64,000 bases of DNA from an uncultured Anaerolineaceae bacterium (lineage in GTDB: Bacteria; Chloroflexota; Anaerolineae; Anaerolineales; E44-bin32): assembly GCA_964385355.1 (NCBI GenBank), contig CAYLOO010000003.1, forward strand, positions 2,879-66,878. Direction: 5' to 3'. Each line of letters begins with the position of its first letter. The first letter of the stretch is position 1. This document shows positions 14,997 to 51,186 of the stretch, in pieces. The notes under the pieces are model-generated. The model was not told where the DNA came from and did no database searches. It was given only the letters and a program-made list of their open reading frames with translations. The position numbers were made by a program, and so were the translations under genes.

Positions 14997-14999
14997 CGA

Positions 15000-16265: not shown

Positions 16266-17872
16266 CGTCCGTGAAGGAATTTTTGCGAAATAGTGCCGCG
16301 AGAATACCGCTCAGCGCTGAGATCTATCAGTCGTGCTTCTCCAGAGGCAATGTGCCTACGGAGGGATATTCTCTGGAGCGTTTGGACAACATTTTACCCG
16401 CGTGGGTCGAGGCTGTAGAAATACTCCACGAGAACGCCAACATCCATCAGCGCCGCCGGATCCTCGTCATCGGTTATCTTCGATGGTGGCTTGAGTATGC
16501 AGTTGCTGTCAGCCTTCTACTCGCAAGTCGAGGGCACCATGTAGACTTGGGTTTTCTCCCTTATAGGGATTGGAAAACTCCAGTACCCCTTTTTGATATT
16601 CGCCGTCAAAGAGTCTATCTGCGGAAGGTCCTCGCACCCATTCTGAACCTTATAAGCCTGCATGATTTATCTGTGTCCCAAAGCAAAGCACTGCCAACGG
16701 AGCTGGTTAAAATCATTGACAATGCAGCCAGGATTGATGTGCAATACAGCACGATGCGTGAGGAACTGGATCTTCGGGATGGCGGGCCGGATGCAGAAAT
16801 CTACCAATTACGCTTGGAGCGGAATCAAGCGGCAGCCGCGAACACTTTAAGTCTCCTTGACGAGATTTCTTATGACACAATCGTGATCCCCAATGGGAGT
16901 GTCCTGGAATTTGGGGTGATTTTTCAGACGGCGAGGTTTCTCAATACCAACGTGGTCACGTATGAGTTCGGTGAACAGCGGGAAAGGATATGGCTGGCTC
17001 AGAATGATGAAGTTATGCGGCTGAATACAACCAGCCTTTGGAAGGCAAAGGATGATGAGCCGCTGTCAAAGGCGCAAGAGAATGAACTGCGAGACCTATA
17101 TCGTGCACGTCGTGGCGGACGCACTTGGGAGAACTTTGGCCGTCAGTGGCAAACTGCCGAGAGCAAGGACGCTCAGGAAGAACTCGCACTTCTTGGAATT
17201 GACCCAGAAAAGCCCGTGGTTCTATTGTGTACGAATGTTGTAGGGGATAGCTTGGCCCTCGACCGGCAGGTATTCACTGAAGGCATGGCTGAGTGGCTCA
17301 GGATGACTGTCGATTATTTTTCTGGTTGCTCGGATGCCCAATTGGTCGTTCGTGTACACCCTGCTGAACTCATTTTGGCGGGTAATCCATCGGTGGAGAT
17401 TGTGCGCGACTCATTCCCGGATCTCCCCGAAAACGTCATCCTCATTCCACCGGAATCGAAGATAAACACCTATGATTTAATTGAAATCGCGCATCTAGGT
17501 CTGGTTTACACGACGACTGTGGGTTTAGAGATGGCGATGAGTGGGGTACCGGTTATTTCCGCGGGGTGTTCTCATTATCGGGGGAGAGGGTTTACCTATG
17601 ATCCTTCAACTTCAGAGGATTATTTAAAGGCAATCGATCAGAGGCTTGCGGAGCCACTTGATCGGCGTCTACCAGATGATCAGATTGAGCTTGCTATCCG
17701 TTATGCCTACCTGTTCTTCTTTAAATACCCGTTCCGATTTCCCTGGCATTTGCTACAGTTCTGGGAAGACATAACTGAACGACCTCTGGAGCAGGTCATT
17801 CAGCCGGGGTTTATTTCGGTGTACGAAGAGACGTTGAATGCATTGTCAGGTGAACCGATCGTCAGGGAGTGA
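16262..17872 (+). CDS. GT-B-like protein resembling capsule biosynthesis KpsC/KpsS family (Capsule_synth-like); paralogue of 45094..46722
   Basis: Track ORF 16196..17872. TTG 16262 overlaps the wzt TGA (TTGA) and is the likelier start. Motifs VVLLCTNVVGDSLALD, LVVRVHPAE and GLVYTTTVGLEMAMSGVPVISAG resemble the KpsS/KpsC C-terminal pattern. The assignment rests on recalled motifs only. Confidence 0.4.
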   Translation: MTSVKEFLRNSAARIPLSAEIYQSCFSRGNVPTEGYSLERLDNILPAWVEAVEILHENANIHQRRRILVIGYLRWWLEYAVAVSLLLASRGHHVDLGFLPYRDWKTPVPLFDIRRQRVYLRKVLAPILNLISLHDLSVSQSKALPTELVKIIDNAARIDVQYSTMREELDLRDGGPDAEIYQLRLERNQAAAANTLSLLDEISYDTIVIPNGSVLEFGVIFQTARFLNTNVVTYEFGEQRERIWLAQNDEVMRLNTTSLWKAKDDEPLSKAQENELRDLYRARRGGRTWENFGRQWQTAESKDAQEELALLGIDPEKPVVLLCTNVVGDSLALDRQVFTEGMAEWLRMTVDYFSGCSDAQLVVRVHPAELILAGNPSVEIVRDSFPDLPENVILIPPESKINTYDLIEIAHLGLVYTTTVGLEMAMSGVPVISAGCSHYRGRGFTYDPSTSEDYLKAIDQRLAEPLDRRLPDDQIELAIRYAYLFFFKYPFRFPWHLLQFWEDITERPLEQVIQPGFISVYEETLNALSGEPIVRE

Positions 17873-17878
17873 GCGGAA

Positions 17879-18811
17879 TTGGAAAACGAAATACTCGGAT
17901 TACCTGAAATCGAGCCCGATGTTAAGCAACGGGTGCGCGAGTTCTACGATTCCGTTGGTTGGAAACAGGTAGGCTCAGGTCTTTATCAGAACGCGCGCTA
18001 CGAGGACCTAAGACCGGTTTCTCGTGAATATATCCACCGGTGCCATATGCGAGTTAACCGTTACCTGAAGAAGACGGGGAAATTCCTGCTTGATGCGGGA
18101 TCAGGACCGATTCAGTATCCGGAGTACCTTGAATATTCTTCCGGTTATCAATATCGTGTTTGCCTGGATATATCATTTCTTGCTCTGGACGAAGCCCGAG
18201 AACGTATCGTGAGTCACGGCTTGTTCGTTGTCGGTGATGCGGCGAATTTACCTTTCAAACGCGAGGCATTTGATGGGGTTGTGTCGCTGCACATGGTTCA
18301 CCATCTCCCGGCGGTGCAACAGCGGCAAGCGTTCGATGAGTTCCACCGTGTGCTTGCTCCGGGGGGGCAGGTGGTTGTGGTCTATAGCTGGGGTGAGCAT
18401 GCTCTCATTGTGCGTCTCACACGACCATTTATCCGATTCGCTTTTTCCCTACAGAGGGGCTACGGTCGGTTGCGACAAAAAAGTGAAGGTATAACACCTC
18501 AAGCAGAGATACAGAGCCACGATGGCAATACCCAACCGGCTCAAGCTACAGGCACCTTCACATACAAGCATGATTACCACTGGGTACGGCAAGAATTGCG
18601 CAATCTTCCTGATCTGCGGGTTGTTGTCTGGAGGAGTGTAAGCACGTCTTTCATGCGGGCCTTTATCTTCCGCCGCCTGCTCGGGCGTTGGTGGTTGCGC
18701 CTGCTCTATTGGCTTGAGGAGCGCGCCCCACATCTTTTCGGTAGGATTGGCCAGTACCCCATGATATTAATTAGCAAACCGCCTGTCGTCGAGAAGCCAT
18801 ATTCGAGGTGA
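17879..18811 (+). CDS. Class I SAM-dependent methyltransferase (paralogue of 26731..27642)
   Basis: Motif I LLDAGSGPIQ, then GDAANLPFKREAFDGVVSLHMVHHL and LAPGGQVVVV. TTG start. Confidence 0.8.
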   Translation: MENEILGLPEIEPDVKQRVREFYDSVGWKQVGSGLYQNARYEDLRPVSREYIHRCHMRVNRYLKKTGKFLLDAGSGPIQYPEYLEYSSGYQYRVCLDISFLALDEARERIVSHGLFVVGDAANLPFKREAFDGVVSLHMVHHLPAVQQRQAFDEFHRVLAPGGQVVVVYSWGEHALIVRLTRPFIRFAFSLQRGYGRLRQKSEGITPQAEIQSHDGNTQPAQATGTFTYKHDYHWVRQELRNLPDLRVVVWRSVSTSFMRAFIFRRLLGRWWLRLLYWLEERAPHLFGRIGQYPMILISKPPVVEKPYSR

Positions 18812-18816
18812 AGATT

Positions 18817-19821
18817 ATGGATTGGAATGAGAAAACCATCCTGGTTACAGGTGGAACAGGTTCGTTTGGCCGTAAATTTGTGAAGATCATGCTAGAGGGT
18901 TATCAACCGGCAAAGCTGATCGTGTTTAGCCGGGATGAACTCAAGCAGCATGAGATGCGCTCTACCGGGTTTGACCATCCCAGTCTGCGCTACTTCATCG
19001 GGGATGTGCGGGATTTAATGCGTCTGCGACGAGCGATGCAGGGTGTAGATATCGTCGTCCATGCCGCCGCACTTAAACAGGTGCCTGCCTGCGAATACAA
19101 CCCCATCGAAGCCATTATGACCAATATCATCGGTGGGCGAAACGTCGTCGAAGCTGCGCTCGATACCGGCGTTGAGAAAGTTATGGCGCTAAGCACCGAC
19201 AAAGCAGTCAACCCCATCAACTTATATGGCGCGACCAAGTTGGCGGCTGAGAAATTGTTTATCCAGTCCAATGCCTATGCAGGAGGTGGGGGGACAAGAT
19301 TCTCGTGTGTGCGTTACGGAAACGTTGTCGGCAGTCGGGGGAGTGTGGTCCCGATGTTCCTCGAGCAAAGGCCAACAGGGCGCATCACCATTACCGACGA
19401 GCGCATGACCCGGTTCTGGCTCTCGTTAGAAGAAGGCGTTCGATTCACCATCCGGTGTATCGAACAAATGGAGGGCGGGGAGGTTTTCGTCCCCAAGATC
19501 CCCTCCATGCGGGTCTTGGATCTGGCTAAGGCGATCGCTCCTGAAGCTGATATCGAAGTGATCGGCATTCGCCCGGGGGAGAAACTACACGAAGTATTGG
19601 TGTCCGAAGATGAAGCGCGGCATACCCTGGAACTGGAGGACATGTACGTTGTTGAACCTGCCGGGGCATTGTGGTTTGGCCATGAATGGCGGAGTTTGGG
19701 GAAGCCATTGGTGGAAGGCTTTCGCTATGCCAGCAACAGTAACGAGAACTGGCTCGAGGAGGGTGAAATTCGCAAGCTGGTAGCGCCATTCGATAATACA
19801 TCTGCGAGGGGGCAGAAGTAG
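18817..19821 (+). CDS. pseB: UDP-N-acetylglucosamine 4,6-dehydratase (inverting), PseB/FlaA1-type
   Basis: MDWNEKTILVTGGTGSFG, FSRDELKQHEM, FIGDVRD, STDKAVNPINLYGATKL, VRYGNVVGSRGSVVP, RMTRFW, FVPKIPSM and GIRPGEKLHE are nearly colinear with H. pylori FlaA1/PseB as recalled. GAGGTGA lies 7 nt before ATG 18817; GTG 18808 is an alternative start. Confidence 0.8.
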   Translation: MDWNEKTILVTGGTGSFGRKFVKIMLEGYQPAKLIVFSRDELKQHEMRSTGFDHPSLRYFIGDVRDLMRLRRAMQGVDIVVHAAALKQVPACEYNPIEAIMTNIIGGRNVVEAALDTGVEKVMALSTDKAVNPINLYGATKLAAEKLFIQSNAYAGGGGTRFSCVRYGNVVGSRGSVVPMFLEQRPTGRITITDERMTRFWLSLEEGVRFTIRCIEQMEGGEVFVPKIPSMRVLDLAKAIAPEADIEVIGIRPGEKLHEVLVSEDEARHTLELEDMYVVEPAGALWFGHEWRSLGKPLVEGFRYASNSNENWLEEGEIRKLVAPFDNTSARGQK

Positions 19822-19823
19822 TC

Positions 19824-20744
19824 TTGGTGCGATTGCTGATCACCGGCGCTAGCGGTTTGCTGGGAGCAAACATCGTCCTGGATGCGCACAGGGAACACGA
19901 GGTAATCGCGGTCTATCATCGGCATGCGATTGAACTGAAAGGGGCTCAATCAGTATCAGCTGATCTGAGTCAGCCGGGTAGAGTGAAGGAGTTGTTCGAT
20001 CGTTTTCAGCCGGAATGGGTAATCCACTGCGCAGCGGATACATCGATCGATGAACTTGAGGGTGATCCTACGCGAGCATTTCGCGCGAACCGGGATATGG
20101 CGGCTAACGTGGCTGAAGCGGCGCGGGAAATCGGAGCCAAGATGGTGCACATTTCAACGGATGCGGTCTTCGATGGCCGCGAGGGACCATACCGGGAGGG
20201 TGACCCGACGGAGCCAGTGAATGTCTATGGGAAGAGCAAGCTCGCCGGTGAGCATGCCGTACAAGCGGTCTGCCCAGAAGCCCTGATCATCCGTACGAAT
20301 ATCTTTGGCTGGAATGCTCAACCGAAGAGTTCTCTAGCGGAGTGGTTTATCAACAACCTTAAGCAAGGAATACCGTGCAAGGGATTTGTTGATGTGTATT
20401 TCAATCCATTACTCGTAAATCATCTATGGGTAATCATCAAGAATTTATTGAAATCAGATTTGTGGGGTGTATTTCATGTGGGGTCGGATCAATGTATATC
20501 AAAGTTCGAGTTTGGGGTCCGTCTTGCAGAATCCTTTGATCTTAAGAAGGAACTAATTAGCGCCATTGAGATTGAGAAGGTAAGTTTTCGAACTCCCCGT
20601 CCCAAAAACACTTGTCTTGATTGCTCTAAGACTAGAAAAGTTATTAACGTAGGATTGCTGGACCTAGAATCAAATATTGATTTCTTCCATGAACTTGAGC
20701 AATTGGGTTATGTTGAAGAAATCAGGAAAATGGTTGTCCAATAA
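19824..20744 (+). CDS. NAD(P)-dependent sugar-nucleotide reductase, RmlD (dTDP-4-dehydrorhamnose reductase)-like
   Basis: Motifs LLITGASGLLGANI, VIHCAADTSID, VHISTDAVFDG and NVYGKSKLAGE (YxxxK). The length and layout fit the RmlD substrate-binding family. Confidence 0.65.
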   Translation: MVRLLITGASGLLGANIVLDAHREHEVIAVYHRHAIELKGAQSVSADLSQPGRVKELFDRFQPEWVIHCAADTSIDELEGDPTRAFRANRDMAANVAEAAREIGAKMVHISTDAVFDGREGPYREGDPTEPVNVYGKSKLAGEHAVQAVCPEALIIRTNIFGWNAQPKSSLAEWFINNLKQGIPCKGFVDVYFNPLLVNHLWVIIKNLLKSDLWGVFHVGSDQCISKFEFGVRLAESFDLKKELISAIEIEKVSFRTPRPKNTCLDCSKTRKVINVGLLDLESNIDFFHELEQLGYVEEIRKMVVQ

Positions 20745-20778
20745 TTCGTCCACACCGCAGAACTTAAGGATATCCGAA

Positions 20779-21594
20779 ATGTACGAACTGATTGAGATCT
20801 CATTGGCCGACACCCAGCGCTTGTTGTCTTACAAAAGGGATCTGGATCTAGAAATCCATCTAAACATTAAGGGGTTTGATTACGGCTGGATTTTGAGTTC
20901 AGTAGAGTGGAAACCGGAAATGAAGGTTTTGGATGTTGGAGCAGGTTACTCTCGATTACCTTTGTATATTGCTCGAACATTTGATTGCGAAGTTTGGTCA
21001 GTCGATGATTTCGGTTTAGGTGACGACGGGTATTGGAAGCGGAACCAGGATCCAAACGCATATATTCGCGAGAATTCCGAGGTGAAGTACATTCTTGAGA
21101 AGGTTGGCGATTCCCAAGAATCAAGTCTCCCGGAAGATTATTTCGATGTCATTTATAGTGCATCTGCATTGGAGCATATTGAGCCATCCCAAGTGCCTGG
21201 TGTGTGGTTGCACATGAGCAAGATTCTCAAATCTGGCGGTCTGATGCTGCATGCGCTCGATATTGCTTTCCCCACCAGTAGAGGATGGCCGCATGTCTTT
21301 ATGGCAGAAGCCTTTGATGTTCTCTATCCCGTTCTCCCTAATAGTATTCGCATGAAGTATCTTTATGAAACACCAAAATCTTATGTTAGACATATCGCAA
21401 AGACAATTGATTTAAACACGTACGGCAGACTCAGGGATATTGGTATAGTTAACATGATTGTTGACCCGGAGATAGTTATTGAACCCCTGGATTACACACT
21501 CAACCGCATGATCAAGGATGGCGACGAAACGGCGAGGTATTTTCGTATAGGCTCGCTGCAAATTGCTCTAAAAAAGACTAACGGGGAGGGTTAA
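20779..21594 (+). CDS. SAM-dependent methyltransferase
   Basis: Track ORF 20677..21594 overlaps the upstream gene; ATG 20779 (MYELIEISL) avoids that. Motifs VLDVGAGYSRLP, FDVIYSASALEHI and LKSGGLMLHALD. Confidence 0.6.
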   Translation: MYELIEISLADTQRLLSYKRDLDLEIHLNIKGFDYGWILSSVEWKPEMKVLDVGAGYSRLPLYIARTFDCEVWSVDDFGLGDDGYWKRNQDPNAYIRENSEVKYILEKVGDSQESSLPEDYFDVIYSASALEHIEPSQVPGVWLHMSKILKSGGLMLHALDIAFPTSRGWPHVFMAEAFDVLYPVLPNSIRMKYLYETPKSYVRHIAKTIDLNTYGRLRDIGIVNMIVDPEIVIEPLDYTLNRMIKDGDETARYFRIGSLQIALKKTNGEG

Positions 21595-21598
21595 TTTT

Positions 21599-22669
21599 AT
21601 GGTGCAAATCATGATTGGGGATCGTCTCATAGGTGAATCTCACCCTGTCTATTTTATCGCCGACATCGCCGCGAACCATGACGGTGATCTCGAACGGGCG
21701 AAGATGCTTATCCGAATGGCGAAGGATGCAGGCGCAGAAGCAGCGAAATTCCAGAACTTCAGCGCACCGAAAATCGTTTCGGATTACGGTTTCAAGGCCT
21801 TGGGCGGTCAATTATCCCATCAAGCCAAATGGAAGAAATCTGTTTTCGAGGTCTATCAAGATGCCTCCGTCCCCTGGGATTGGACACCCATCTTGAAGGA
21901 AGAGTGCGATAAAGTAGGCATTCACTATTTCTCTTCCCCCTATGATTTCGAGACAATCGACATGCTTGACCCTTTTGTTCCAGCCTTTAAAGCTGGTTCT
22001 GGGTTGATGAGTTGGCCCGAAGCGCTGGTTTATATGGCCAGCAAAGGAAAACCTTTAATCATGGCAACGGGCGCGAGCGAGTTGGGCGAAGTGGTAGAGA
22101 ACGTGAGTGCTGTTCTGGAAGTAAATCCAGATCTCGTGTTGATGCAATGCAACACCAACTATACCGCCAGCCTGGAGAACTTCGATCATATCCACTTGAA
22201 TGTGCTGAAGACCTACGCGTCGCTCTTCCCGAATGTTGTCTTGGGTTTATCGGACCACACCCCGGGACATGCGACGGTCCTCGGCGCCGTAACCTTAGGC
22301 GCACGGGCGGTTGAGAAGCATTTTACGGATAACAACGACCGCGAGGGTCCAGACCATAAATTTGCTTTGGATCCAGATGCCTGGGCGGAGATGGTCGCTA
22401 GAACGCGCGAACTCGAACGCGCATTTGGTTCTTCTGTAAAACGTGTGGCAGACAATGAGCGGGAAACTGTGGTTCTTCAACGGCGGTGCCTGAGGGCGGC
22501 GCGCGATATTAAAAAGGACGAGGTCATCACGAGAGAGATGGTTGATGTTCTGCGGCCGGCCACGCCCGGTGCAATTTCACCCAAAGAGATCGAGGCTGTA
22601 GTTGGCACAAAAGCAGGGGTGGACATACCGATGGGTGAAGCCCTATTCTGGACAGTGCTGGGGGCCTAG
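21599..22669 (+). CDS. NeuB-family nonulosonic acid synthase with C-terminal SAF domain (NeuB/PseI/LegI type)
   Basis: Motifs PVYFIADIAANHDGDLERAKMLI, KFQNF, LIMATGAS and LGLSDHTPG, with a C-terminal SAF-like segment (RRCLRAARDIKKDEVITREMV). RBS GGGGAGGG precedes ATG 21599. Confidence 0.85.
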   Translation: MVQIMIGDRLIGESHPVYFIADIAANHDGDLERAKMLIRMAKDAGAEAAKFQNFSAPKIVSDYGFKALGGQLSHQAKWKKSVFEVYQDASVPWDWTPILKEECDKVGIHYFSSPYDFETIDMLDPFVPAFKAGSGLMSWPEALVYMASKGKPLIMATGASELGEVVENVSAVLEVNPDLVLMQCNTNYTASLENFDHIHLNVLKTYASLFPNVVLGLSDHTPGHATVLGAVTLGARAVEKHFTDNNDREGPDHKFALDPDAWAEMVARTRELERAFGSSVKRVADNERETVVLQRRCLRAARDIKKDEVITREMVDVLRPATPGAISPKEIEAVVGTKAGVDIPMGEALFWTVLGA

Positions 22670-23772
22670 TGCGCGTCCTTTACTTCTCGCAGGATTACAC
22701 GCCACATGATTTTCGTTTCTTAAGTGCCCTCTCGAAGACGGAGCATGACGTTTTCTATCTCCCGTTAGAGCGAATTATGGCTTCTGAGAGTAGGAAGTTG
22801 CCTGAAGGTGTGCAAATGGTCCATGGCTGGGGGCACACAGAGCCAGTGAGAGCGTTCGATGTCCCCTTCCTAAGGCGAAGGCTTCGAAAGCTGTTGGGGG
22901 AGATTCGACCGGATGTAGTACATGCCGGTCCTGTTCAGAAGAGTGCCTTCCTGACCGCGCTTGCTGGATACCAACCGCTGGTCACAATGTCGTGGGGATC
23001 AGATTTGCTTATGGATGCCCAGAGGGGAGTGGGTCGATGCGCAGCTCGTTATGCGCTGTCAAGAAGCGCGATCCTCGTGTGTGATTGTAAGGCTGTTCGC
23101 GATGTGGCTGTGAATCTGGGGATGCCTGAAGATCGGGTCGTGATTTTTCCTTGGGGGGTCGACCTGAATCATTTCAATCCTGATCAGTCAGGGGATGTTC
23201 GAAGAGGCCTGGGATGGGAGAATAATTTTGTCTTGATCTCCACCAGAGCTTGGGAGCCGCTTTATGGCCTTGATGTTCTCGTAGATGGTTTCATCGATGC
23301 GGCACGGATTGAAGCGAATCTCCGCCTCCTTTTGCTCGGAGTAGGCTCGCTAGAACCCGTTATCCGGAGCAAACTCGAGAACGCTGATATGCTTGATCGT
23401 GTTCACTTCGCCGGTCAAGTAGGCTATGATGATTTGCCTGACCATTATCGTTCGGCGGATCTATATATCAGCGCCTCCTATAGCGACGGCTCGTCTATTT
23501 CTTTACTCGAAGCGATGGCGTGTGGCGTTCCCGCCCTCGTTTCCGATATTCCAGGTAATCGCGAGTGGGTTACGCCGGAGAAAGAGGGGTGGTGGTTTAT
23601 CAAGGGCGATCCACGATCCCTTTCCGAAGGGATTCTCATGAGCCTCAGAAATCGGAAAGCGCTGTATGAGATGGCAGGGGCAGCTCGGCAAATTACAGAA
23701 AAGCGTGCAAACTGGCAAGAGAATTTCACATCTCTGCTAGATGCCTATACACTTGCAGTCGCTCAGGTGTGA
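22669..23772 (+). CDS. Glycosyltransferase family 4 (group 1, GT-B)
   Basis: 367 aa; the GTG start overlaps the upstream TAG by 1 nt. It carries an EX7E-type motif, SISLLEAMACGVPALVSDIPGNREWV. Confidence 0.85.
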   Translation: MRVLYFSQDYTPHDFRFLSALSKTEHDVFYLPLERIMASESRKLPEGVQMVHGWGHTEPVRAFDVPFLRRRLRKLLGEIRPDVVHAGPVQKSAFLTALAGYQPLVTMSWGSDLLMDAQRGVGRCAARYALSRSAILVCDCKAVRDVAVNLGMPEDRVVIFPWGVDLNHFNPDQSGDVRRGLGWENNFVLISTRAWEPLYGLDVLVDGFIDAARIEANLRLLLLGVGSLEPVIRSKLENADMLDRVHFAGQVGYDDLPDHYRSADLYISASYSDGSSISLLEAMACGVPALVSDIPGNREWVTPEKEGWWFIKGDPRSLSEGILMSLRNRKALYEMAGAARQITEKRANWQENFTSLLDAYTLAVAQV

Positions 23773-23793
23773 TCCCTTTCCGGGAGGGAGATT

Positions 23794-24555
23794 ATGCTAG
23801 GTTTCGATGAATTAGTTACTGGGCTTCAGCAATTAAACCTCAGCGATGATGACGTCCTGATGGTCCATAGCTCTTATAAATCCCTGGGTGGTGTGGAAGG
23901 TGGAGCCGAGACTGTTATCGATGCTCTGCAAGAGGCAGCTGGCACACACGGCACCGTGCTTTATCCGACGTTCAATTTCCAATCCTGGACCGAAACCCAC
24001 TACTATGACATCCGAGAGACTCACTCGAATATGGGTGTGATCACCGAGTTAGCCCGTTTGAGACCGGATGCGGTCCGAACTCCACATCCGATTTACTCCT
24101 TCGCGGTTTTGGGCGCGCGAAAGAAGGAGTTCGCTGCCTGTAACGATCCCGAGGCGTACGGGGAAAATTCAGTCTTTGGCCTTTTCCACAGGTTGAATGG
24201 GAAGATCTTAAGTATTGGGCTTCACTTCAACAGCACCTTCTCCATGCATCATTACGTTGAGTATCATACGGGCTGTAATTACCGTCGACAAAAAAACTTT
24301 TCGGGAATTTATATTGATTATGAGGGACCGCCACAACTGAGGACATACTCCATGTTTGTGCGGGCGACACCACGGATACAAACCGACATCGTTCCGGGCA
24401 TGACCGAACTTGTCGAGAAGGGCGTTATTCAAGAGGGGAAAGTGGGTCAAACGACGATTCACTTCTCCAGAGCAGAAGATTTTTACGACAATATGTCGGT
24501 CATTGTTAAAGAACATCCAGAAAAGCTGCATCATGCACCAGAAGCAACCCAATAA
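23794..24555 (+). CDS. AAC(3)-family (Antibiotic_NAT fold) N-acetyltransferase, probably acting on an amino sugar
   Basis: The N-terminal pattern VLMVHSSYKSLGGVEGGAETVIDALQEAAGTHGTVLYPTFNF is the hallmark of aminoglycoside 3-N-acetyltransferase-like proteins. RBS GGGAGGGAG. Confidence 0.7.
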   Translation: MLGFDELVTGLQQLNLSDDDVLMVHSSYKSLGGVEGGAETVIDALQEAAGTHGTVLYPTFNFQSWTETHYYDIRETHSNMGVITELARLRPDAVRTPHPIYSFAVLGARKKEFAACNDPEAYGENSVFGLFHRLNGKILSIGLHFNSTFSMHHYVEYHTGCNYRRQKNFSGIYIDYEGPPQLRTYSMFVRATPRIQTDIVPGMTELVEKGVIQEGKVGQTTIHFSRAEDFYDNMSVIVKEHPEKLHHAPEATQ

Positions 24556-24561
24556 CGAGTA

Positions 24562-25896
24562 ATGATAATGAAACAGGTCCCACTTAAATCAATTCTTGCT
24601 GAAATCTACCCTCTGCACCGGACACTGGCTAGTGACGGGACAGATGAAGCCCTCGAGATTATCGGGGGTTACATGCCGGATGAGTCAGGCTATACCATCG
24701 AGACCTACACCCCGGGGAAGCCTGTGTGGACCTGGCGAGTGCCGGAGAGGTATGTAGTTCATGAGGCTTATCTTGAGATCGCAGATGGGGAGCGGGTACT
24801 TGATTTCTCCGAAAACTCGCTGCATCTCGTTTCTTATTCGCTGCCGATTGATAGTACTCTCTCTTGGGACGAACTCGAACCCCATTTGTTCTTCAACGAG
24901 AAACGCCCAGAGGCGATTCCCTGGGAATTTAAATACTACGAGCGAAGCTGGGGTTTCTGTCTTCCCAAAAATACGTTCGATCAATTGCCACGCGATCAGA
25001 AGTACCGCGCAGTGATCCGCTCGGAATTCATTGCGGACCCGAAGCGTGGGTTCCGGGTTGGGACCGGGCTGATCCACCCAGATGACGGTCCGAATCCATC
25101 GGTAGGCGAAATCATCATCGCCTCCCATATCTGCCATCCGATGCAGGCGAATGATGACGCCGCAGGTGTTGTGACGGCTATTGGGTTAGCCCAGCGATTG
25201 ATCGAAGAGCCACTTCGCAAGGGATCGATGAACGTCCGCTTCCTTTTCTGCCCAGAAACGATTGGAAGTATTGCTTATTTAGCCCACCATGAAGATCTTA
25301 TCCCCCACATGAAAGGTGGAATTTTCCTTGAAATGACGGGAAATGAAAATACACTTGTGCTTCAGCACTCACGTCAAGACACACATCTCATCGATCGTGT
25401 GGCTGGGTATGTTCTTGGTCAGCGAGATGAGCGCTATAGAGAGGGCGAGTTCGCACAGGTCGTCGCCAACGATGAGCGTGTGATCAATGGTCCCGGCGTG
25501 AACGTCCCCTGCATCTCGTTGAGTCGCTGGCCCTATGATGAGTATCACACAAGTGACGACAACCTCAGCATCATCAGTGAGGAAATGCTCCAGGATGCTG
25601 CAAAGATCGGCGAGGATATTATCCGGATTTTCGCGTCGAACTATATTCCCAAGAGGAATTTCCGAGGTCCGGTTTTTCTTTCCGGTCACGATCTGTGGGT
25701 GGATTGGAGAGAGGATTGGGATCTCAATCGAGCTATCGAGAAGATCATGATGCGCTTCGAAGGGCAACAAAGCATCTTCGATATCAGTGAGGAACTCGGG
25801 CTTGATTACTGGGCAACCTACAATTATGTGGAGAAATTTCGCGAGAAGGGGCTCATCGAACGATTGCCGATCCCTAGCGAATCGTCCGCAGAATAG
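24562..25896 (+). CDS. Aminopeptidase-like domain protein (DUF2172/DUF4910, COG4310-type) with C-terminal winged-helix-like tail
   Basis: 444 aa. IYPLHRTLASDGTDEAL, IIASHICHPMQANDDAAGV and FLFCPETIGSIAYL match my recollection of this family, which recurs in polysaccharide loci. Its function is unknown. Confidence 0.55.
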   Translation: MIMKQVPLKSILAEIYPLHRTLASDGTDEALEIIGGYMPDESGYTIETYTPGKPVWTWRVPERYVVHEAYLEIADGERVLDFSENSLHLVSYSLPIDSTLSWDELEPHLFFNEKRPEAIPWEFKYYERSWGFCLPKNTFDQLPRDQKYRAVIRSEFIADPKRGFRVGTGLIHPDDGPNPSVGEIIIASHICHPMQANDDAAGVVTAIGLAQRLIEEPLRKGSMNVRFLFCPETIGSIAYLAHHEDLIPHMKGGIFLEMTGNENTLVLQHSRQDTHLIDRVAGYVLGQRDERYREGEFAQVVANDERVINGPGVNVPCISLSRWPYDEYHTSDDNLSIISEEMLQDAAKIGEDIIRIFASNYIPKRNFRGPVFLSGHDLWVDWREDWDLNRAIEKIMMRFEGQQSIFDISEELGLDYWATYNYVEKFREKGLIERLPIPSESSAE

Positions 25897-25923
25897 CAGG
25901 CACTTCGTGAAGAAGAGGTCTAA

Positions 25924-26694
25924 TTGGTGCAGGTAGGTAAGTCAAGGGATGGAACAATAGCGATTGTCCAGGCCAGGATGGCTTCGACTCGCTTGCCAGG
26001 AAAGGTACTGGCCGACATCGCCGGCCAATCGATGCTGGCCCGTGTCGTCATGCGAGCACGGAGATCGAAACGAATTGACCGACTTGTCGTGGCGACAAGC
26101 ACAGAGTCTAGAGATGATCCAATTGTTGCACTCTGCGAGCAGATGGAGTTTGAATATTCACGCGGCAGTGCCTTGGACGTCCTGGACCGGTATTTCCAAG
26201 TTTCCCAGGAATTCGAGGCGCAGACCGTTGTGCGTCTAACTGCAGACTGCCCGGTGATCGATCCAGATGTAATCGATCAAACTATCGAAGAATTCTTCGC
26301 TGCAGAACCCGCGGCAGATTTCGCAGCAAACCGCTTTCCCTGGGAGAGGACATTCCCGATCGGCTTGGATGTAGAGGTCTGCACAATGAAGGCATTGGAA
26401 ACTGCCTGGAGTGAAGCGGATCAGCAGCACCAGCGCGAGCATGTCATGCCGTTTCTATATGAGAGGCCCGAACGATTCCGGATCCTACACGTGCGGAATG
26501 ACGAGGATTATGGTCACATACGCTGGACAGTTGACACCGTTGATGATCTGGCCTTTGTCCGCGAGATTTATAAGCGTTTCCGCGGCCGGGATGACTTCAA
26601 TTGGCGGGAGATCCTGGAATTACTTGAGAAGGAACCTGAACTAGCGCAGATCAACGCGCATGTTCAGCATAAATCACATCTGGATGTGGGTTGA
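25924..26694 (+). CDS. SpsF/FlmC-type cytidylyltransferase (CMP-nonulosonate synthetase candidate)
   Basis: IAIVQARMASTRLPGKVLADIAGQSML...RLVVATS...VLDRYF...VRLTADCP is the SpsF-like CTP_transf_3 pattern. The start (TTG 25924 or GTG 25927) is uncertain. Confidence 0.7.
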   Translation: MVQVGKSRDGTIAIVQARMASTRLPGKVLADIAGQSMLARVVMRARRSKRIDRLVVATSTESRDDPIVALCEQMEFEYSRGSALDVLDRYFQVSQEFEAQTVVRLTADCPVIDPDVIDQTIEEFFAAEPAADFAANRFPWERTFPIGLDVEVCTMKALETAWSEADQQHQREHVMPFLYERPERFRILHVRNDEDYGHIRWTVDTVDDLAFVREIYKRFRGRDDFNWREILELLEKEPELAQINAHVQHKSHLDVG

Positions 26695-26730
26695 TAGGAT
26701 GGGAGCTATGAGCAATTTTGGAGGCGTTCT

Positions 26731-27642
26731 TTGAGCGATGGAGTTGATGTCAAGCGACAAGTTCGTGAATTCTATGACACCTTCGGTTGGAAGCCGCTCG
26801 CCGAAGGGCTCTATCATGACGCGCGCTACGAAGATCTGCGACTCGTGTCTCGCGAGTATGTCCAGCGATGTCGCCTCCGCGTGATACAGCATCTGCCGCC
26901 TACAGGTCGTTACCTCTTAGATGGCGGATCGGGACCTATTCAGTATTCGGAATATCTTGAATACTCTCATGGTTATCGCCATCGCGTTTGTTTAGATATT
27001 TCTCACCTTGCGTTGAGAGAAGCGCGTTCGCGTATAGGTGACCATGGGTTGTTTGTTGTTGGGGATATTTCCAAGCTCCCCTTTGAATCAAATGTATTTG
27101 AAGGTGTGGTTTCCATGCATGTCGTTTATCACCTCCCGAGAGAGGAACAGGCCAACACATTCCGAGAATTCTTTCGGGTCCTGCAACCCTCTGGAAAGGG
27201 GGTAATCGTCTACAGTTGGGGAGAGCACTCAGCCCTTATGAGGTTAGCGCGTTTCCCGATGTGGATAGCGTCGTGGCTGGTAAAAGCGTACAGCTACGTG
27301 CGTAATAAGGAGCAGCGCATCGAGGATGTACAGGGGCACCGTATGGATACTGATCAAATGAAGGTCGTCCAGGCTCCATCTCTCTTCAGCTTCAAGTACG
27401 ATTATCAATGGCTTCGGCAACAAGCGGGGCATCTGCCAGGATTTGATATTCGTGTCTGGAGGACAGCGAGTTCTGCTTTCCTTCGTGCGTTCATCTTTAA
27501 ACCGTTATTCGGTCAGTTCTGGTTGAGAGTTCTTTATTGGGTTGAGGAACGGGCACCACGCCTTATGGGTCGCGTGGGTCAATACCCCATGGTTCTCTTC
27601 GAGAAACCACCCATCCGTAAGCAAGAGAGTGTTGGGCAGTAA
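26731..27642 (+). CDS. Class I SAM-dependent methyltransferase (paralogue of 17879..18811)
   Basis: Colinear with the 17879 protein: VREFYD.GWK, ARYEDLR.VSREY, LLDGGSGPIQYSEYLEYS, RVCLDIS and a C-terminal ERAP.L.GR.GQYPM motif. GGAGG lies 7 nt before TTG 26731. Confidence 0.8.
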   Translation: MSDGVDVKRQVREFYDTFGWKPLAEGLYHDARYEDLRLVSREYVQRCRLRVIQHLPPTGRYLLDGGSGPIQYSEYLEYSHGYRHRVCLDISHLALREARSRIGDHGLFVVGDISKLPFESNVFEGVVSMHVVYHLPREEQANTFREFFRVLQPSGKGVIVYSWGEHSALMRLARFPMWIASWLVKAYSYVRNKEQRIEDVQGHRMDTDQMKVVQAPSLFSFKYDYQWLRQQAGHLPGFDIRVWRTASSAFLRAFIFKPLFGQFWLRVLYWVEERAPRLMGRVGQYPMVLFEKPPIRKQESVGQ

Positions 27643-27691
27643 CTGTGGGGATGAACGTACCAGACAGGCCGCTCTTCTTGAGACACAATTC

Positions 27692-28645: not shown

Positions 28646-28646
28646 T

Positions 28647-29687: not shown

Positions 29688-29809
29688 TTGCGAGGTATGA
29701 CTAACAGATCAGGGGAGATCCTGGTTTCGGTTACCAGCGTCTTTGGCGCAAGAGCCGCGGTCTGGGTCAGCTGCAATACCTGATTAAGGGGAGAGATGCG
29801 AGAGCAGCT

Positions 29810-30778: not shown

Positions 30779-30815
30779 CAAGCACGGATTCGACAAGTGA
30801 GGCCGGTATCTTGAA

Positions 30816-50129: not shown

Positions 50130-50133
50130 CCGA

Positions 50134-51126: not shown

Positions 51127-51186
51127 AAATAGGCTCTTTATAGCATCTCTTTTGTTTTAGGGGTGCGTGGATCAAGGAGTTACACA

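What the first reader, a model, noticed from the sequence alone, without database searches (positions are those of the whole stretch)
17879..27642. PseB/NeuB/SpsF-type nonulosonate cassette bracketed by paralogous methyltransferases and lacking aminotransferase and hydrolase steps
Seen: the paralogous methyltransferases at 17879-18811 and 26731-27642 share long identical stretches (for example GSGPIQY.EYLEYS). They flank a block containing PseB, an RmlD-like reductase, another methyltransferase, a SAF-containing NeuB, a GT4, an AAC(3)-type acetyltransferase, a DUF4910 protein and an SpsF-type cytidylyltransferase. Established knowledge: the canonical CMP-pseudaminic acid pathway needs PseB, PseC (a PLP aminotransferase), PseH, PseG, PseI and PseF. 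No PLP aminotransferase and no PseG/LegG-type hydrolase or 2-epimerase is recognisable anywhere in the window. Inference, option one: the missing steps are encoded elsewhere. Option two: the PseB plus RmlD-like reductase pair makes a 6-deoxy-HexNAc, analogous to the L-RhaNAc/L-QuiNAc routes, and NeuB condenses a non-aminated or differently derived hexose to give a non-canonical nonulosonate. The flanking paralogues also suggest cassette duplication or insertion.
Basis: partly seen in the sequence, partly recalled or inferred. Interest (0 to 1): 0.6.

Follow-up and report, generated by a model that had tools for sequence, protein, structure and literature searches.

The report
Aminotransferase-free sialic-acid-like sugar cassette
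This Anaerolineae surface-glycan locus carries a widely conserved but uncharacterised gene set that resembles the pseudaminic acid pathway with a reductase where the amino-adding steps should be, so it probably makes a rare one-nitrogen, 9-deoxy sialic-acid-like sugar, decorated here by optional acyl-swapping and methylating enzymes.

Summary
All ten genes lie at the stated coordinates. The whole window has no PLP aminotransferase, PseG or hydrolysing 2-epimerase. The genome (89.6% complete) has no PseG either; its one DegT gene lies in an unrelated operon.

The core is PseB, an RmlD-like reductase, a divergent NeuB/SAF synthase, a GT4 and an SpsF-like cytidylyltransferase. All 25 loci fetched from the same order have it, and none has DegT or PseG within 20 kb. 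Two closed relatives lack PseG genome-wide. The same core occurs in Acidobacteriota, Verrucomicrobiota, Ignavibacteriota and, without GT4, in Campylobacterota. Its NeuB forms a separate clade with invariant motifs.

The most likely product is a CMP-activated 5-acylamino-3,5,9-trideoxy-nonulosonic acid with a 7-hydroxyl. This rests on gene content only. The UDP-releasing enzyme is unidentified.

AAC(3) and DUF4910 are optional accessories, the same pair by annotation as C. jejuni Cj1296/7 and Cj1295, and probably swap the N5 acyl group.

The bracketing methyltransferases do not mark a cassette insertion. MT1 is a conserved member, MT3 is its lineage-specific duplicate, and MT2 is a compositionally foreign insert.

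This scan has found the same cassette before on other DNA. I found no published pathway for it.

The parts
14136..16265 (+). Wzm (14136-14996) and Wzt (15000-16265, with a Wzt_C glycan-binding domain): the ABC exporter of the glycan. A conserved left flank of the cassette.
   Evidence: Pfam ABC2_membrane, ABC_tran and Wzt_C. The order Fcl-Wzm-Wzt-ORF558 precedes PseB in the fetched relatives.
16196..17872 (+). ORF558, a KpsS/KpsC-like (Capsule_synth) protein: the probable transferase for the CMP-activated ulosonic acid.
   Evidence: Weak PF05159 match, E 0.0031. The related ORF at 45094-46722, beside the window's second NeuB module, matches PF05159 at 1.7e-10. Homologues also sit beside NeuB in other Chloroflexota families (L056, L048, L176).
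17879..18811 (+). MT1, a SAM methyltransferase and a conserved cassette member.
   Evidence: Pfam Methyltransf_11/25. Orthologues lie between ORF558 and PseB in most relatives.
18808..19821 (+). [quoted passage not shown]
   Evidence: TIGR03589 492 bits against a cut-off of 408. It has the STDK...YGATK signature, which PMC8987622 gives for this class. It is 59-70% identical to the PseB of canonical Chloroflexota pse loci.
19824..20744 (+). RmlD-like NAD(P)H reductase: the proposed 4-ketoreductase acting on the PseB product.
   Evidence: PF04321, E 3.9e-57. GxxGxxG, STD and YGKSK motifs are intact. The best PDB relatives are RmlD enzymes. It sits immediately before NeuB in nearly every locus of this type; a few have one accessory gene between them, as here.
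20677..21594 (+). MT2, an unrelated methyltransferase in the variable slot between the reductase and NeuB. Probably a recent acquisition. The true start is probably downstream of 20744.
   Evidence: Pfam Methyltransf_11. No similarity to MT1. GC3 is 0.35 against 0.45-0.62 in the other cassette genes. It is absent from this slot in all relatives; a near relative has a sulfotransferase there.
21599..22669 (+). Divergent NeuB+SAF nonulosonate synthase, the marker of the cassette type.
   Evidence: It scores below both the NeuB and PseI cut-offs. It forms a separate clade on a stem of 1.26 with SH-aLRT 100. The motifs KxGSG and CNTNYT are present together in 352 of 358 fetched homologues.
22669..23772 (+). 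GT4 (GT-B fold) protein whose start overlaps the NeuB stop. Role unresolved: either a dedicated glycosyltransferase or the missing UDP-sugar hydrolase.
   Evidence: Pfam Glycos_transf_1. An orthologous GT4 follows NeuB in Chloroflexota, Acidobacteriota, Verrucomicrobiota and Ignavibacteriota. It is absent from the two Campylobacterota loci; a Maf gene is visible in the Poseidonibacter one. No PseG-model match anywhere in the genome.
23794..24555 (+). AAC(3)-fold N-acyltransferase, an optional accessory.
   Evidence: PF02522, E 3e-43. The best PDB relative is FrbF, 3sma. It is absent from the cassette of family f3 relatives and of a near relative.
24562..25896 (+). DUF4910/DUF2172 metallohydrolase-like protein of the CA_C2195/Cj1295 family: an optional accessory and the proposed N-deacetylase.
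   Evidence: PF16254 and PF09940. PDB 3k9t matches at E 2.8e-51, and the residues aligned with its Zn ligands (His, Asp, His) are conserved. Genetic evidence on Cj1295 comes from PMC3068675.
25924..26694 (+). SpsF-like CTP_transf_3 cytidylyltransferase, which would make the CMP-activated sugar.
   Evidence: PF02348, E 2e-34. It is 36-51% identical to the cytidylyltransferase of canonical Chloroflexota pse loci and 44-51% to those of same-order core loci.
26731..27642 (+). MT3, a lineage-specific and fast-evolving duplicate of MT1.
   Evidence: 56% identical to MT1. In the tree it groups only with this window's MT1 and a near relative's MT1 (SH-aLRT 100), on a branch of 0.92 against 0.28 and 0.14. 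It is absent from relatives.
27542..33244 (+). Conserved right flank: ORF367 (no family), two GT2 paralogues, ORF485 (TagF-like C-terminus) and a GFO/IDH/MocA oxidoreductase.
   Evidence: Pfam. The same order follows the cytidylyltransferase in relatives.

Best explanation
The region is this genome's copy of a conserved 'aminotransferase-free' nonulosonic acid cassette, embedded in an ABC-transporter-exported surface glycan locus.

Proposed route:
1. PseB converts UDP-GlcNAc to UDP-2-acetamido-2,6-dideoxy-L-arabino-hexos-4-ulose. This is supported at equivalog level.
2. The RmlD-like enzyme reduces the 4-keto group instead of PseC aminating it, giving a UDP-6-deoxy-L-HexNAc such as 6-deoxy-L-AltNAc (inferred).
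3. UDP is removed by an unidentified enzyme. GT4 is one candidate (weak inference).
4. The divergent NeuB/SAF synthase condenses the free sugar with PEP, giving a 5-acetamido-3,5,9-trideoxy-nonulosonic acid with a 7-hydroxyl (inferred; stereochemistry unknown).
5. The SpsF-like enzyme makes the CMP sugar.

In this genome, optional decorating genes then act. DUF4910 probably removes the N5-acetyl group and the AAC(3)-fold enzyme re-acylates the amine. MT1, MT2 and MT3 methylate the sugar or its acyl group.

The KpsS-like ORF558 probably installs the residue. Wzm/Wzt export the glycan.
For: - Enzyme identities. PseB is above the curated cut-off and has the class signature. The reductase has intact catalytic motifs.
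- Conservation in the order. 25 of 25 loci fetched from the same order have PseB, the RmlD-like gene and this NeuB type. None of the 25 has DegT or a PseG-like gene within 20 kb. PseB is present in 34 of 34 genomes of the order.
- No PseG elsewhere. None was found in the own genome or in four relatives, including two single-contig genomes.
- Contrast with canonical loci. Other Chloroflexota families carry PseB-DegT-cytidylyltransferase-PseG-like-NeuB. Their PseB (59-70%) and cytidylyltransferase (36-51%) come close to the range seen in same-order core loci (67-78% and 44-51%), but their NeuB is only 35-36% identical. So the middle steps look swapped.
- A transitional form. Candidatus Chloroploca asiatica has PseB, a 175-aa DegT remnant, a cytidylyltransferase, the RmlD-like gene, NeuB and GT4.
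- Breadth. The same core occurs in Acidobacteriota, Terriglobales, Ignavibacteriota, Verrucomicrobiota and Campylobacterota.
- NeuB. It forms a separate clade nearest to PseI-type synthases, with an altered sugar pocket.
- Chemical precedent. The F. nucleatum 25586 O-chain contains 6-deoxy-L-AltNAc together with a 5-amino-3,5,9-trideoxy-nonulosonic acid (reference 4 in PMC7371886).
- Accessory pair. Cj1295 is needed for the N5-(di-O-methylglyceroyl) form of pseudaminic acid, and its neighbour Cj1296/7 is annotated as AAC(3)-like. Non-homologous deacylase plus acyltransferase pairs follow the core in Acidobacteriota (Polysacc_deac_1 with Acetyltransf_6) and in Poseidonibacter (Amidase with a GNAT).
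Against: - There is no chemistry or enzymology. Everything rests on gene content, synteny and phylogeny.
- No UDP-releasing enzyme is identified. GT4 has no PseG-model match and is missing from the Campylobacterota loci.
- Verrucomicrobiota loci carry a full-length DegT between the cytidylyltransferase and the reductase. Campylobacterota and Terriglobales loci carry a cytidylyltransferase, GFO oxidoreductase and aminotransferase set. So the reductase does not simply exclude amination everywhere.
- The NeuB pocket has Gly where PseI enzymes have Phe, a position PMC7371886 links to the C2 configuration. The substrate may therefore not be L-altro-configured.
- The grouping of this NeuB clade with PseI has only moderate support: SH-aLRT 91, a quick tree and a long stem.
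Confidence: 0.55

Rival explanations
1. Two separate products. PseB and the RmlD-like reductase make UDP-6-deoxy-L-HexNAc, which GT4 transfers into the glycan as an ordinary residue. NeuB and the SpsF-like enzyme make an unrelated nonulosonic acid from a sugar supplied by general metabolism.
For: - No UDP-sugar hydrolase is recognisable.
- GT4 is a normal-looking retaining GT-B glycosyltransferase whose closest solved relatives are PimB-type enzymes.
- GT4 is present in polysaccharide-type loci but absent from the two Campylobacterota loci; the Poseidonibacter one carries Maf.
- 6-deoxy-L-AltNAc is itself a glycan residue in F. nucleatum 25586.
Against: - PseB, the RmlD-like gene and this NeuB clade stay adjacent in every locus seen, in at least five phyla and under different assembly systems (ABC transporter, Wzx/Wzy, flagellin Maf). 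This includes loci without GT4.
- The genome offers no other source of a free NeuB substrate. Its only Epimerase_2 is a non-hydrolysing WecB beside a UDP-ManNAc dehydrogenase.
- The window has a separate phosphatase-linked NeuB module for a Kdn-type sugar.
Confidence: 0.15
2. Late amination. The cassette first makes the 7-hydroxy acid. After CMP activation, an oxidoreductase and an aminotransferase convert a hydroxyl into an amine, so the final product is a diamino acid (pseudaminic-like) made by a different order of steps.
For: - A cytidylyltransferase, GFO/MocA oxidoreductase and aminotransferase set accompanies the core in Poseidonibacter and Sulfurimonas.
- Terriglobales has a single 1027-aa fusion of GFO, CTP_transf_3 and Aminotran_3.
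- A GFO oxidoreductase is a conserved right-flank gene here.
- The AAC(3)-fold enzyme needs an amine to acylate.
Against: - There is no aminotransferase in the window.
- The genome's only DegT lies in an operon with E1 alpha, E1 beta and a lipoyl/PglD-type acyltransferase on another contig, among housekeeping genes.
- No DegT lies within 20 kb of the cassette in 25 relatives.
- AAC(3) and DUF4910 are dispensable in many relatives, so they are not core steps.
Confidence: 0.12
3. Split canonical pathway. Ordinary Pse5Ac7Ac is made, with PseC, PseH and PseG encoded elsewhere or on unassembled DNA. The RmlD-like enzyme serves another sugar.
For: - The genome is a 207-contig assembly estimated 89.6% complete.
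- One DegT exists, scoring 291 bits against the PseC model (cut-off 423).
- Relatives hold three or four DegT genes each.
Against: - No PseG match in this genome or in four relatives, two of them single-contig genomes estimated 99% complete.
- The NeuB is not a PseI equivalog and lacks the Phe typical of PseI.
- Canonical pse loci in the same phylum keep all their genes together, so a split would be unusual.
- The reductase is always glued to PseB and NeuB.
Confidence: 0.07

Closest known systems
CMP-pseudaminic acid pathway (PseB, PseC, PseH, PseG, PseI, PseF) of Campylobacter jejuni and Helicobacter pylori
   Same: The first enzyme is a PseB at equivalog level. The last two steps use the same families, a NeuB-family synthase with a SAF domain and a CTP_transf_3 cytidylyltransferase. 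PseB and the cytidylyltransferase are close to those of canonical pse loci in the same phylum. The NeuB clade sits nearest to PseI-type synthases.
   Different: There is no PseC aminotransferase, PseH or PseG. An RmlD-like reductase and a GT4 stand in those positions. The synthase falls below the PseI cut-off and has Gly where PseI has Phe. The predicted product carries one nitrogen and a 7-hydroxyl.
[quoted passage not shown] 2017, cited in PMC7371886)
   Same: This is the only natural nonulosonic acid of the predicted class reported in the papers I read. It occurs together with the sugar that PseB plus a 4-reductase would make.
   Different: This is a chemical precedent only. I could not reach the strain's genome, so no gene-to-sugar link was tested here. 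The stereochemistry of the product here is unknown.
CA_C2195 / Cj1295 (DUF4910) gene neighbourhood, with the AAC(3)-like Cj1296/7
   Same: It has the same DUF4910+DUF2172 architecture with conserved Zn ligands. An AAC(3)-fold acyltransferase is adjacent. NeuB, SpsF, an SDR, methyltransferase and glycosyltransferase genes lie nearby, as Das et al. 2014 described. Cj1295 is genetically tied to replacement of the N5-acetyl of pseudaminic acid by a di-O-methylglyceroyl group.
   Different: In C. jejuni the pair decorates a canonical diamino pseudaminic acid on flagellin. Here it accompanies the aminotransferase-free core in an ABC-transporter glycan locus. No biochemical activity has been shown for any family member.
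UDP-L-RhaNAc / UDP-L-QuiNAc route (WbvB, WbvR, WbvD of Vibrio cholerae O37; recalled from memory)
   Same: A UDP-GlcNAc dehydratase is followed by an RmlD-family 4-reductase.
   Different: The dehydratase here is PseB-type, not FnlA/WbvB-type (237 bits against a cut-off of 730). There is no 2-epimerase. The pair is locked to a NeuB synthase and a cytidylyltransferase.

Membership tests
Canonical CMP-pseudaminic acid pathway | [quoted passage not shown] | tested here: met
   TIGR03589 492 bits against a cut-off of 408. STDK...YxxxK signature present.
Canonical CMP-pseudaminic acid pathway | PseC, the PLP aminotransferase acting on the 4-keto sugar | tested here: not met
   No PF01041 match on the window's contig. 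The only strong DegT in the genome is on contig C13, scores 291 bits against the PseC cut-off of 423, and lies in an E1/lipoyl-acyltransferase operon.
Canonical CMP-pseudaminic acid pathway | PseG, the UDP-sugar hydrolase | tested here: not met
   TIGR03590 has no match at E<=0.01 in the own genome or in four relatives, two of them closed. The same search does find a PseG-like gene in a canonical locus of genome G360.
Canonical CMP-pseudaminic acid pathway | PseH, the GNAT N-acetyltransferase | tested here: inconclusive
   No GNAT gene is in the cassette. The acyltransferase present has the AAC(3) fold and is optional in relatives. TIGR03585 was not searched genome-wide.
Canonical CMP-pseudaminic acid pathway | PseI synthase at equivalog level | tested here: not met
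   TIGR03586 240 bits against a cut-off of 340. It has KxGSG where PseI-context synthases have K[IV]ASF (one has P). It forms a separate clade.
Canonical CMP-pseudaminic acid pathway | PseF cytidylyltransferase at equivalog level | tested here: not met
   TIGR03584 31 bits against a cut-off of 206. The CTP_transf_3 family match itself is clear. The gene is 36-51% identical to the cytidylyltransferase of canonical Chloroflexota pse loci.
Aminotransferase-free nonulosonate cassette (uncharacterised; defined by this scan and this report) | PseB-type dehydratase, RmlD-like reductase and NeuB/SAF synthase linked together, with a CTP_transf_3 gene nearby | tested here: met
   All are present in the window. 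The same set is in 25 of 25 same-order loci and in other phyla, though not every locus shows a nearby cytidylyltransferase.
Aminotransferase-free nonulosonate cassette (uncharacterised; defined by this scan and this report) | NeuB belongs to the clade with the KxGSG, CNTNYT and SHQxxWxKS motifs | tested here: met
   The window protein has KAGSG, CNTNYT and SHQAKWKKS. KxGSG and CNTNYT occur together in 352 of 358 fetched homologues. The clade has SH-aLRT 100.
Aminotransferase-free nonulosonate cassette (uncharacterised; defined by this scan and this report) | The product is a 7-hydroxy, 9-deoxy, one-nitrogen nonulosonic acid | not testable with these tools
   This needs enzymology or mass spectrometry/NMR of a carrier's glycan.
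DUF4910 (CA_C2195 / Cj1295) modification module | DUF4910 metallopeptidase-like domain with an inserted DUF2172 and the His/Asp/His zinc site | tested here: met
   PF16254 192 bits and PF09940 100 bits. In the alignment to 3k9t, the CHP...ND and YHTS ligand positions are conserved.
DUF4910 (CA_C2195 / Cj1295) modification module | An adjacent AAC(3)-fold acyltransferase within a sugar-acid locus | tested here: met
   The gene at 23794-24555 lies immediately upstream. The same pairing is annotated in C. jejuni as Cj1295 with Cj1296/7.
L-RhaNAc/L-QuiNAc (WbvB/WbvR/WbvD-type) route | FnlA/WbvB-type 4,6-dehydratase/5-epimerase, plus a 2-epimerase | tested here: not met
   FnlA model 237 bits against a cut-off of 730. 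No Epimerase_2 match in the window.
ABC-transporter-dependent glycan assembly | Wzm and Wzt, with a C-terminal glycan-binding domain on Wzt | tested here: met
   ABC2_membrane, ABC_tran and Wzt_C hits.

The most novel reading that the evidence does not exclude
The cassette encodes a complete, undescribed route to a CMP-activated 5-N-acyl-7-hydroxy-9-deoxy nonulosonic acid. A GT4-family protein acts as the UDP-sugar hydrolase, a non-orthologous replacement of PseG. The DUF4910/AAC(3) pair exchanges the N5 acyl group on the free or CMP-linked sugar. This would assign first activities to DUF4910 and to this GT4 subfamily.
Probability: 0.2. Interest if true: 0.75.

Novelty: new variant of a known kind. 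Interest (0 to 1): 0.6.

Why it matters
Nonulosonic acids (sialic, legionaminic and pseudaminic acids) shape how microbial surfaces are recognised. All described bacterial 9-deoxy routes add a second amino group.

If this cassette makes a 7-hydroxy, 9-deoxy acid, three things follow:
- It would give genes to a sugar class known from a single O-antigen.
- It would show that this class is common in environmental bacteria, including essentially a whole order of Anaerolineae and members of at least four other phyla.
- It would provide a sequence marker, the NeuB clade motifs, for finding it.

This window also ties the long-unexplained DUF4910/AAC(3) pair to an optional decoration step. The pair sits in one of three variable slots that swap methyltransferase, sulfotransferase and acyl-exchange genes, a pattern resembling serotype diversification.

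Cultured carriers such as Poseidonibacter lekithochrous make the idea directly testable.

Tried and rejected
1. Cassette insertion or duplication marked by the paralogous methyltransferases: rejected.
- No DNA repeat is detected beyond a 45-nt stretch at 71% identity.
- The flanks and gene order are conserved across the order.
- MT3 is a duplicate of MT1 alone.

2. AAC(3) and DUF4910 as stand-ins for PseH and PseG: rejected as core steps.
- Many relatives with the same core lack both genes.
- A canonical locus (G360) has DegT and a PseG-like gene as well as the pair.

3. GT4 as a PseG homologue.
- There is no TIGR03590 match, and the solved relatives are ordinary GT4 transferases.
- GT4 stays only as a candidate by position, and its absence from Campylobacterota loci weakens that.

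4. Assigning the synthase to the Neu, Leg or Pse type from the diagnostic positions of PMC7371886: mixed result.
- It has Gly like the Neu/Leg types at one position and Thr at the other, so no assignment is possible.

5. Linking the cassette to the F. nucleatum ATCC 25586 genome.
- A 16S probe pattern reached Fusobacterium genomes.
- The species representative is strain SB042, which has no NeuB.
- The NeuB loci fetched from a 101-genome sample of Fusobacteriaceae are Leg-, Neu- or Pse-type.
- One 3-kb contig with the core type (G412:C208) carries a NeuB identical to a protein that NCBI assigns to an Acetoanaerobium MAG. It is probably a binning error, so I make no claim for Fusobacteriaceae.

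6. Paper searches for a described pathway to the trideoxy acid found none.

Full report
**Observation.** Their family assignments hold.
- 18808-19821 is a PseB at equivalog level (TIGR03589 492 bits, cut-off 408; FnlA 237 against 730). [quoted passage not shown]
- 19824-20744 is an RmlD-family reductase. It scores just below the RmlD cut-off and has intact GxxGxxG, STD and YGKSK motifs.
- 21599-22669 is a NeuB+SAF protein that scores below both the NeuB (253/400) and PseI (240/340) cut-offs.
- 22669-23772 is a GT4. 23794-24555 has the AAC(3) fold. 24562-25896 is DUF4910+DUF2172.
- 25924-26694 is a CTP_transf_3 protein that is not an equivalog of PseF, NeuA or KdsB.
- The methyltransferases at 17879-18811 (MT1) and 26731-27642 (MT3) are 56% identical (E 3e-120). 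The one at 20677-21594 (MT2) is unrelated to them.

**Absence of the 'missing' steps.** Pfam scans of the window's ORFs of 150 aa or more found no aminotransferase, PseG-like protein or Epimerase_2 protein. ORFs nested inside longer ones, and one at 62700-63476, were not scanned.
- The window is G000:C3:2879-66878 of a 207-contig assembly estimated 89.6% complete.
- Genome-wide there is one strong DegT on contig C13, no PseG match, and one Epimerase_2.
- That Epimerase_2 is a non-hydrolysing WecB beside a UDP-ManNAc dehydrogenase.
- The DegT scores 291 bits against the PseC cut-off of 423. It lies in an operon with E1 alpha, E1 beta and a lipoyl-domain/PglD-type acyltransferase, among housekeeping genes.
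- PseB, NeuB, AAC(3), DUF4910 and the SpsF-like gene have no close second copy in the genome. The only other NeuB is the SAF-less one at 44204-45079.

**Setting.** The cassette sits in an ABC-transporter glycan locus.
- Upstream lie an Fcl-like gene, Wzm, Wzt with a Wzt_C domain, and ORF558.
- ORF558 matches Capsule_synth (KpsS/KpsC family) weakly, at E 0.0031. A related ORF at 45094-46722, beside the window's second NeuB module, matches the same family at 1.7e-10.
- ORF558-like genes also sit beside NeuB in other Chloroflexota families. This makes ORF558 the best candidate for the ulosonic acid transferase.
- Downstream lie ORF367, two GT2 genes, ORF485 with a TagF-like C-terminus, and a GFO/MocA oxidoreductase.

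**Conservation in the bacterial order.**
- PseB is present in 34 of 34 sampled genomes of the same order: families f2 24/24, f3 9/9, f4 1/1.
- I fetched 20 kb around it in 25 of these genomes. All 25 have PseB, the RmlD-like gene and a NeuB 62-72% identical to the window's. Twenty-four have the GT4 next to NeuB.
- The whole order Fcl-Wzm-Wzt-ORF558-(MT1)-PseB-RmlD-like-NeuB-GT4-...-SpsF-ORF367-GT2-(ORF485)-GFO recurs.
- None of the 25 has a DegT or PseG-like gene in the fetched stretch.
- Four relatives have no PseG match anywhere. Two of them are single-contig genomes estimated 99% complete.
- So the absence is not an assembly artefact of this MAG.

**Contrast with canonical loci.** Other Chloroflexota families carry PseB-DegT-cytidylyltransferase-PseG-like-NeuB.
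- Their PseB is 59-70% identical to the window's, against 67-78% in same-order core loci. Their cytidylyltransferase is 36-51% identical, against 44-51%. The ranges overlap.
- Their NeuB is only 35-36% identical.
- The first and last enzymes therefore look orthologous to those of a normal pse operon, while the middle of the pathway has been exchanged.
- Candidatus Chloroploca asiatica (named) shows a transitional arrangement: PseB, a 175-aa DegT fragment, a cytidylyltransferase, the RmlD-like gene, NeuB (59% identical) and GT4. The fragment covers only the N-terminal half of the family, and no trace of the rest is found.

**The synthase.**
- In a tree of 52 NeuB-family proteins labelled by gene context, the reductase-linked synthases form one clade (SH-aLRT 100, stem 1.26).
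- This clade joins the PseI-type synthases of PseB/DegT/PseG loci with moderate support (SH-aLRT 91), apart from the NeuD-associated Leg/Neu types.
- This was a quick tree with long branches, so I treat the sister relation as a lead.
- The clade has its own pocket. It reads KxGSG where PseI-context enzymes read K[IV]ASF. PMC7371886 links that Phe to the C2 configuration of the pseudaminic acid substrate.
- It also has CNTNYT and a longer, conserved SHQxxWxKS loop in the region the same paper assigns to recognition of C4-C6.
- KxGSG and CNTNYT occur together in 352 of 358 homologues fetched from three searches.

**Beyond the phylum.** Homologues 57-65% identical, with the same neighbours, occur in several phyla.
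- Acidobacteriota and a related metagenome contig: PseB, cytidylyltransferase, RmlD-like, NeuB, GT4.
- Terriglobales and Ignavibacteriota.
- Verrucomicrobiota, where a full-length DegT and an aldo-keto reductase are also present.
- Campylobacterota: Poseidonibacter lekithochrous CP054052.1 and a Sulfurimonas isolate CP093397.1. There GT4 is absent, and a cytidylyltransferase, GFO and DegT set is present. A Maf flagellin-glycosylation gene is visible in the Poseidonibacter locus.
- The strict linkage is therefore PseB, RmlD-like and NeuB. GT4 is linked in polysaccharide-type loci only.

**Mechanism proposed.** PseB makes the 4-keto-6-deoxy-L-sugar. The reductase reduces C4 instead of PseC aminating it. 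UDP is removed. NeuB condenses the free 6-deoxy-HexNAc with PEP. The SpsF-like enzyme activates the product with CMP.
- The product would be a 5-acetamido-3,5,9-trideoxy-nonulosonic acid with a 7-hydroxyl.
- One such acid is known: the 5-acetimidoylamino-3,5,9-trideoxy-gluco-nonulosonic acid of the F. nucleatum 25586 O-chain. It occurs together with 6-deoxy-L-AltNAc, the expected product of PseB plus a 4-reductase (reference 4 in PMC7371886).
- That paper calls it the single reported trideoxy compound.
- I found no paper describing its genes.
- Only the PseB step is supported at equivalog level. All other steps are inference from family, synteny and co-occurrence.

**Unresolved step.** No UDP-releasing enzyme is identified.
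- GT4 is a GT-B protein whose start overlaps the NeuB stop, and an orthologous GT4 follows NeuB in four phyla.
- Against this, it has no PseG-model match, its solved relatives are ordinary transferases, and the Campylobacterota loci lack it.
- One relative (G019) has a NUDIX gene between the reductase and NeuB, and its GT4 lies elsewhere.
- I put the GT4-as-hydrolase idea at roughly one in four.

**The accessory pair.** AAC(3) and DUF4910 are not core.
- DUF4910 is present in 23 of 24 f2 genomes but only 3 of 9 f3 genomes.
- Many loci go straight from GT4 to the cytidylyltransferase, or have an unrelated small ORF there.
- A near relative with 89% identical NeuB lacks both genes.
- DUF4910 is the CA_C2195 family. 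The crystal structure 3k9t matches at E 2.8e-51, and its Zn ligands His189, Asp195 and His324 align with conserved residues here.
- Das et al. (PMC4000134) described its neighbourhood of SDR, nucleotidyltransferase, glycosyltransferase, amino-sugar N-acetyltransferase and methylase genes. They suggested a sugar-modifying, non-peptidase role.
- The C. jejuni member Cj1295 is required for the pseudaminic acid form whose N5-acetyl is replaced by a di-O-methylglyceroyl group. The authors proposed that it removes the N5-acetyl (PMC3068675).
- Its neighbour Cj1296/7 is annotated as an aminoglycoside N3'-acetyltransferase (PMC3025981), which by annotation is the same pairing as here.
- The closest solved relative of the window's AAC(3)-fold protein is FrbF. 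From memory, FrbF acetylates a CMP-linked amine.
- Non-homologous deacylase plus acyltransferase pairs follow the core elsewhere: Polysacc_deac_1 with Acetyltransf_6 in Acidobacteriota, and Amidase with a GNAT in Poseidonibacter.
- Together these point to exchange of the N5 acyl group as a recurrent, optional decoration.

**The methyltransferases and variable slots.**
- MT1 is a regular member, found between ORF558 and PseB in most relatives.
- MT3 groups only with this window's MT1 and a near relative's MT1 (SH-aLRT 100) and sits on a long branch. It is a duplicate of MT1 made within this lineage, and it is evolving fast.
- MT2 has GC3 of 0.35 against 0.45-0.62 in the other cassette genes. 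No relative has it in that slot.
- The slot between the reductase and NeuB holds a sulfotransferase in the near relative, a PMT_2 gene in G112 and a NUDIX gene in G019.
- The slot after the cytidylyltransferase holds a different methyltransferase in some f3 genomes.
- No flanking DNA repeats exist.
- The 'bracketing' is therefore a by-product of decoration genes turning over in fixed slots around a stable core. It is not a sign of cassette insertion.

**Cautions.**
- Verrucomicrobiota loci keep a full DegT beside the reductase. Several phyla add a GFO plus aminotransferase set, once fused to the cytidylyltransferase. A late-amination variant is therefore possible in some lineages.
- In this window there is a GFO gene but no aminotransferase.
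- The Gly-for-Phe change in the synthase may mean that the substrate is not L-altro-configured.
- Kin are not independent, so the 25/25 count overstates the number of independent observations. The cross-phylum loci are the stronger evidence.

**Earlier notes of this scan.** After forming this reading I found that the scan has noted the same cassette many times on other DNA. Several follow-ups reached the same reading and also left the hydrolase unidentified.
- One note says the F. nucleatum 25586 annotation shows the cassette. I could not test this.
- My attempt through Fusobacterium genomes failed. The one apparent hit is probably a mis-binned contig.

**Verdict.**
- The feature is a new variant of a known kind of pathway, uncharacterised in the literature I could search.
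- What this window adds is the link between the core and the optional DUF4910/AAC(3) and methyltransferase decorations.

Noticed in passing
G000 contig C13:32843-37376 (locus L196 8843-13376, minus strand): The genome's only DegT aminotransferase lies in an apparent operon. Its partners are 2-oxoacid dehydrogenase E1 alpha and E1 beta subunits and a fusion of a lipoyl domain with a PglD-type hexapeptide N-acyltransferase. This suggests lipoyl-dependent delivery of an acyl group to an amino sugar. The contig ends just upstream.
   Followed up: partly
window 49425-51936: A third CTP_transf_3 cytidylyltransferase is followed by a D-2-hydroxyacid dehydrogenase and an SDR. With the SpsF-like gene and the NeuA-HAD fusion at 42961-44211, the window has three cytidylyltransferases and two NeuB genes.
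   Followed up: no
window 54650-55477: A 275-aa protein carries an MptE-like domain. In the Poseidonibacter locus L194 the same domain occurs in a Maf_flag10-type gene. Here it sits in a locus with no flagellar genes in view.
   Followed up: no
window 46815-48268: A methyltransferase and a PIG-L family de-N-acetylase directly follow the second KpsS-like gene (45094-46722). This is another deacetylase associated with an ulosonic acid module.
   Followed up: no
L192 (ENA scaffold; NeuB 89% identical to the window's): Divergence from the window is mosaic. Fcl, Wzm and Wzt are 92-94% identical, NeuB 89% and PseB 85%. By contrast the RmlD-like gene is 53%, GT4 48%, ORF558 56%, and ORF367 and the GT2 genes 51-58%. 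This looks like serotype-type replacement of the specificity genes between close relatives.
   Followed up: partly
L168 8967-9494 (Candidatus Chloroploca asiatica, G391:C62): A 175-aa DegT fragment sits between PseB and the cytidylyltransferase of a reductase-type cassette. Only the N-terminal half of the family is present. It may be a relic of a canonical pse operon.
   Followed up: partly
L189 4876-7959 (Terriglobales MAG); L194 15550-18539 and L195 15288-18264 (Campylobacterota): A 1027-aa fusion of GFO/MocA oxidoreductase, CTP_transf_3 and a class-III aminotransferase lies beside the cassette in Terriglobales. In Poseidonibacter and Sulfurimonas the same three functions occur as adjacent genes (cytidylyltransferase, GFO, DegT). 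This hints at oxidation and amination of a CMP-linked sugar.
   Followed up: no
L166 11689-12237 (G019): A NUDIX hydrolase gene sits between the RmlD-like reductase and NeuB. In this genome the cassette is split: GT4, AAC(3), DUF4910 and the cytidylyltransferase lie 78 kb away (L041).
   Followed up: no
The contig is probably mis-binned.
   Followed up: partly
window 41823-42899: A sulfotransferase (Sulfotransfer_3/1) lies in the same glycan locus. A different sulfotransferase occupies the reductase|NeuB slot in the near relative L192.
   Followed up: no
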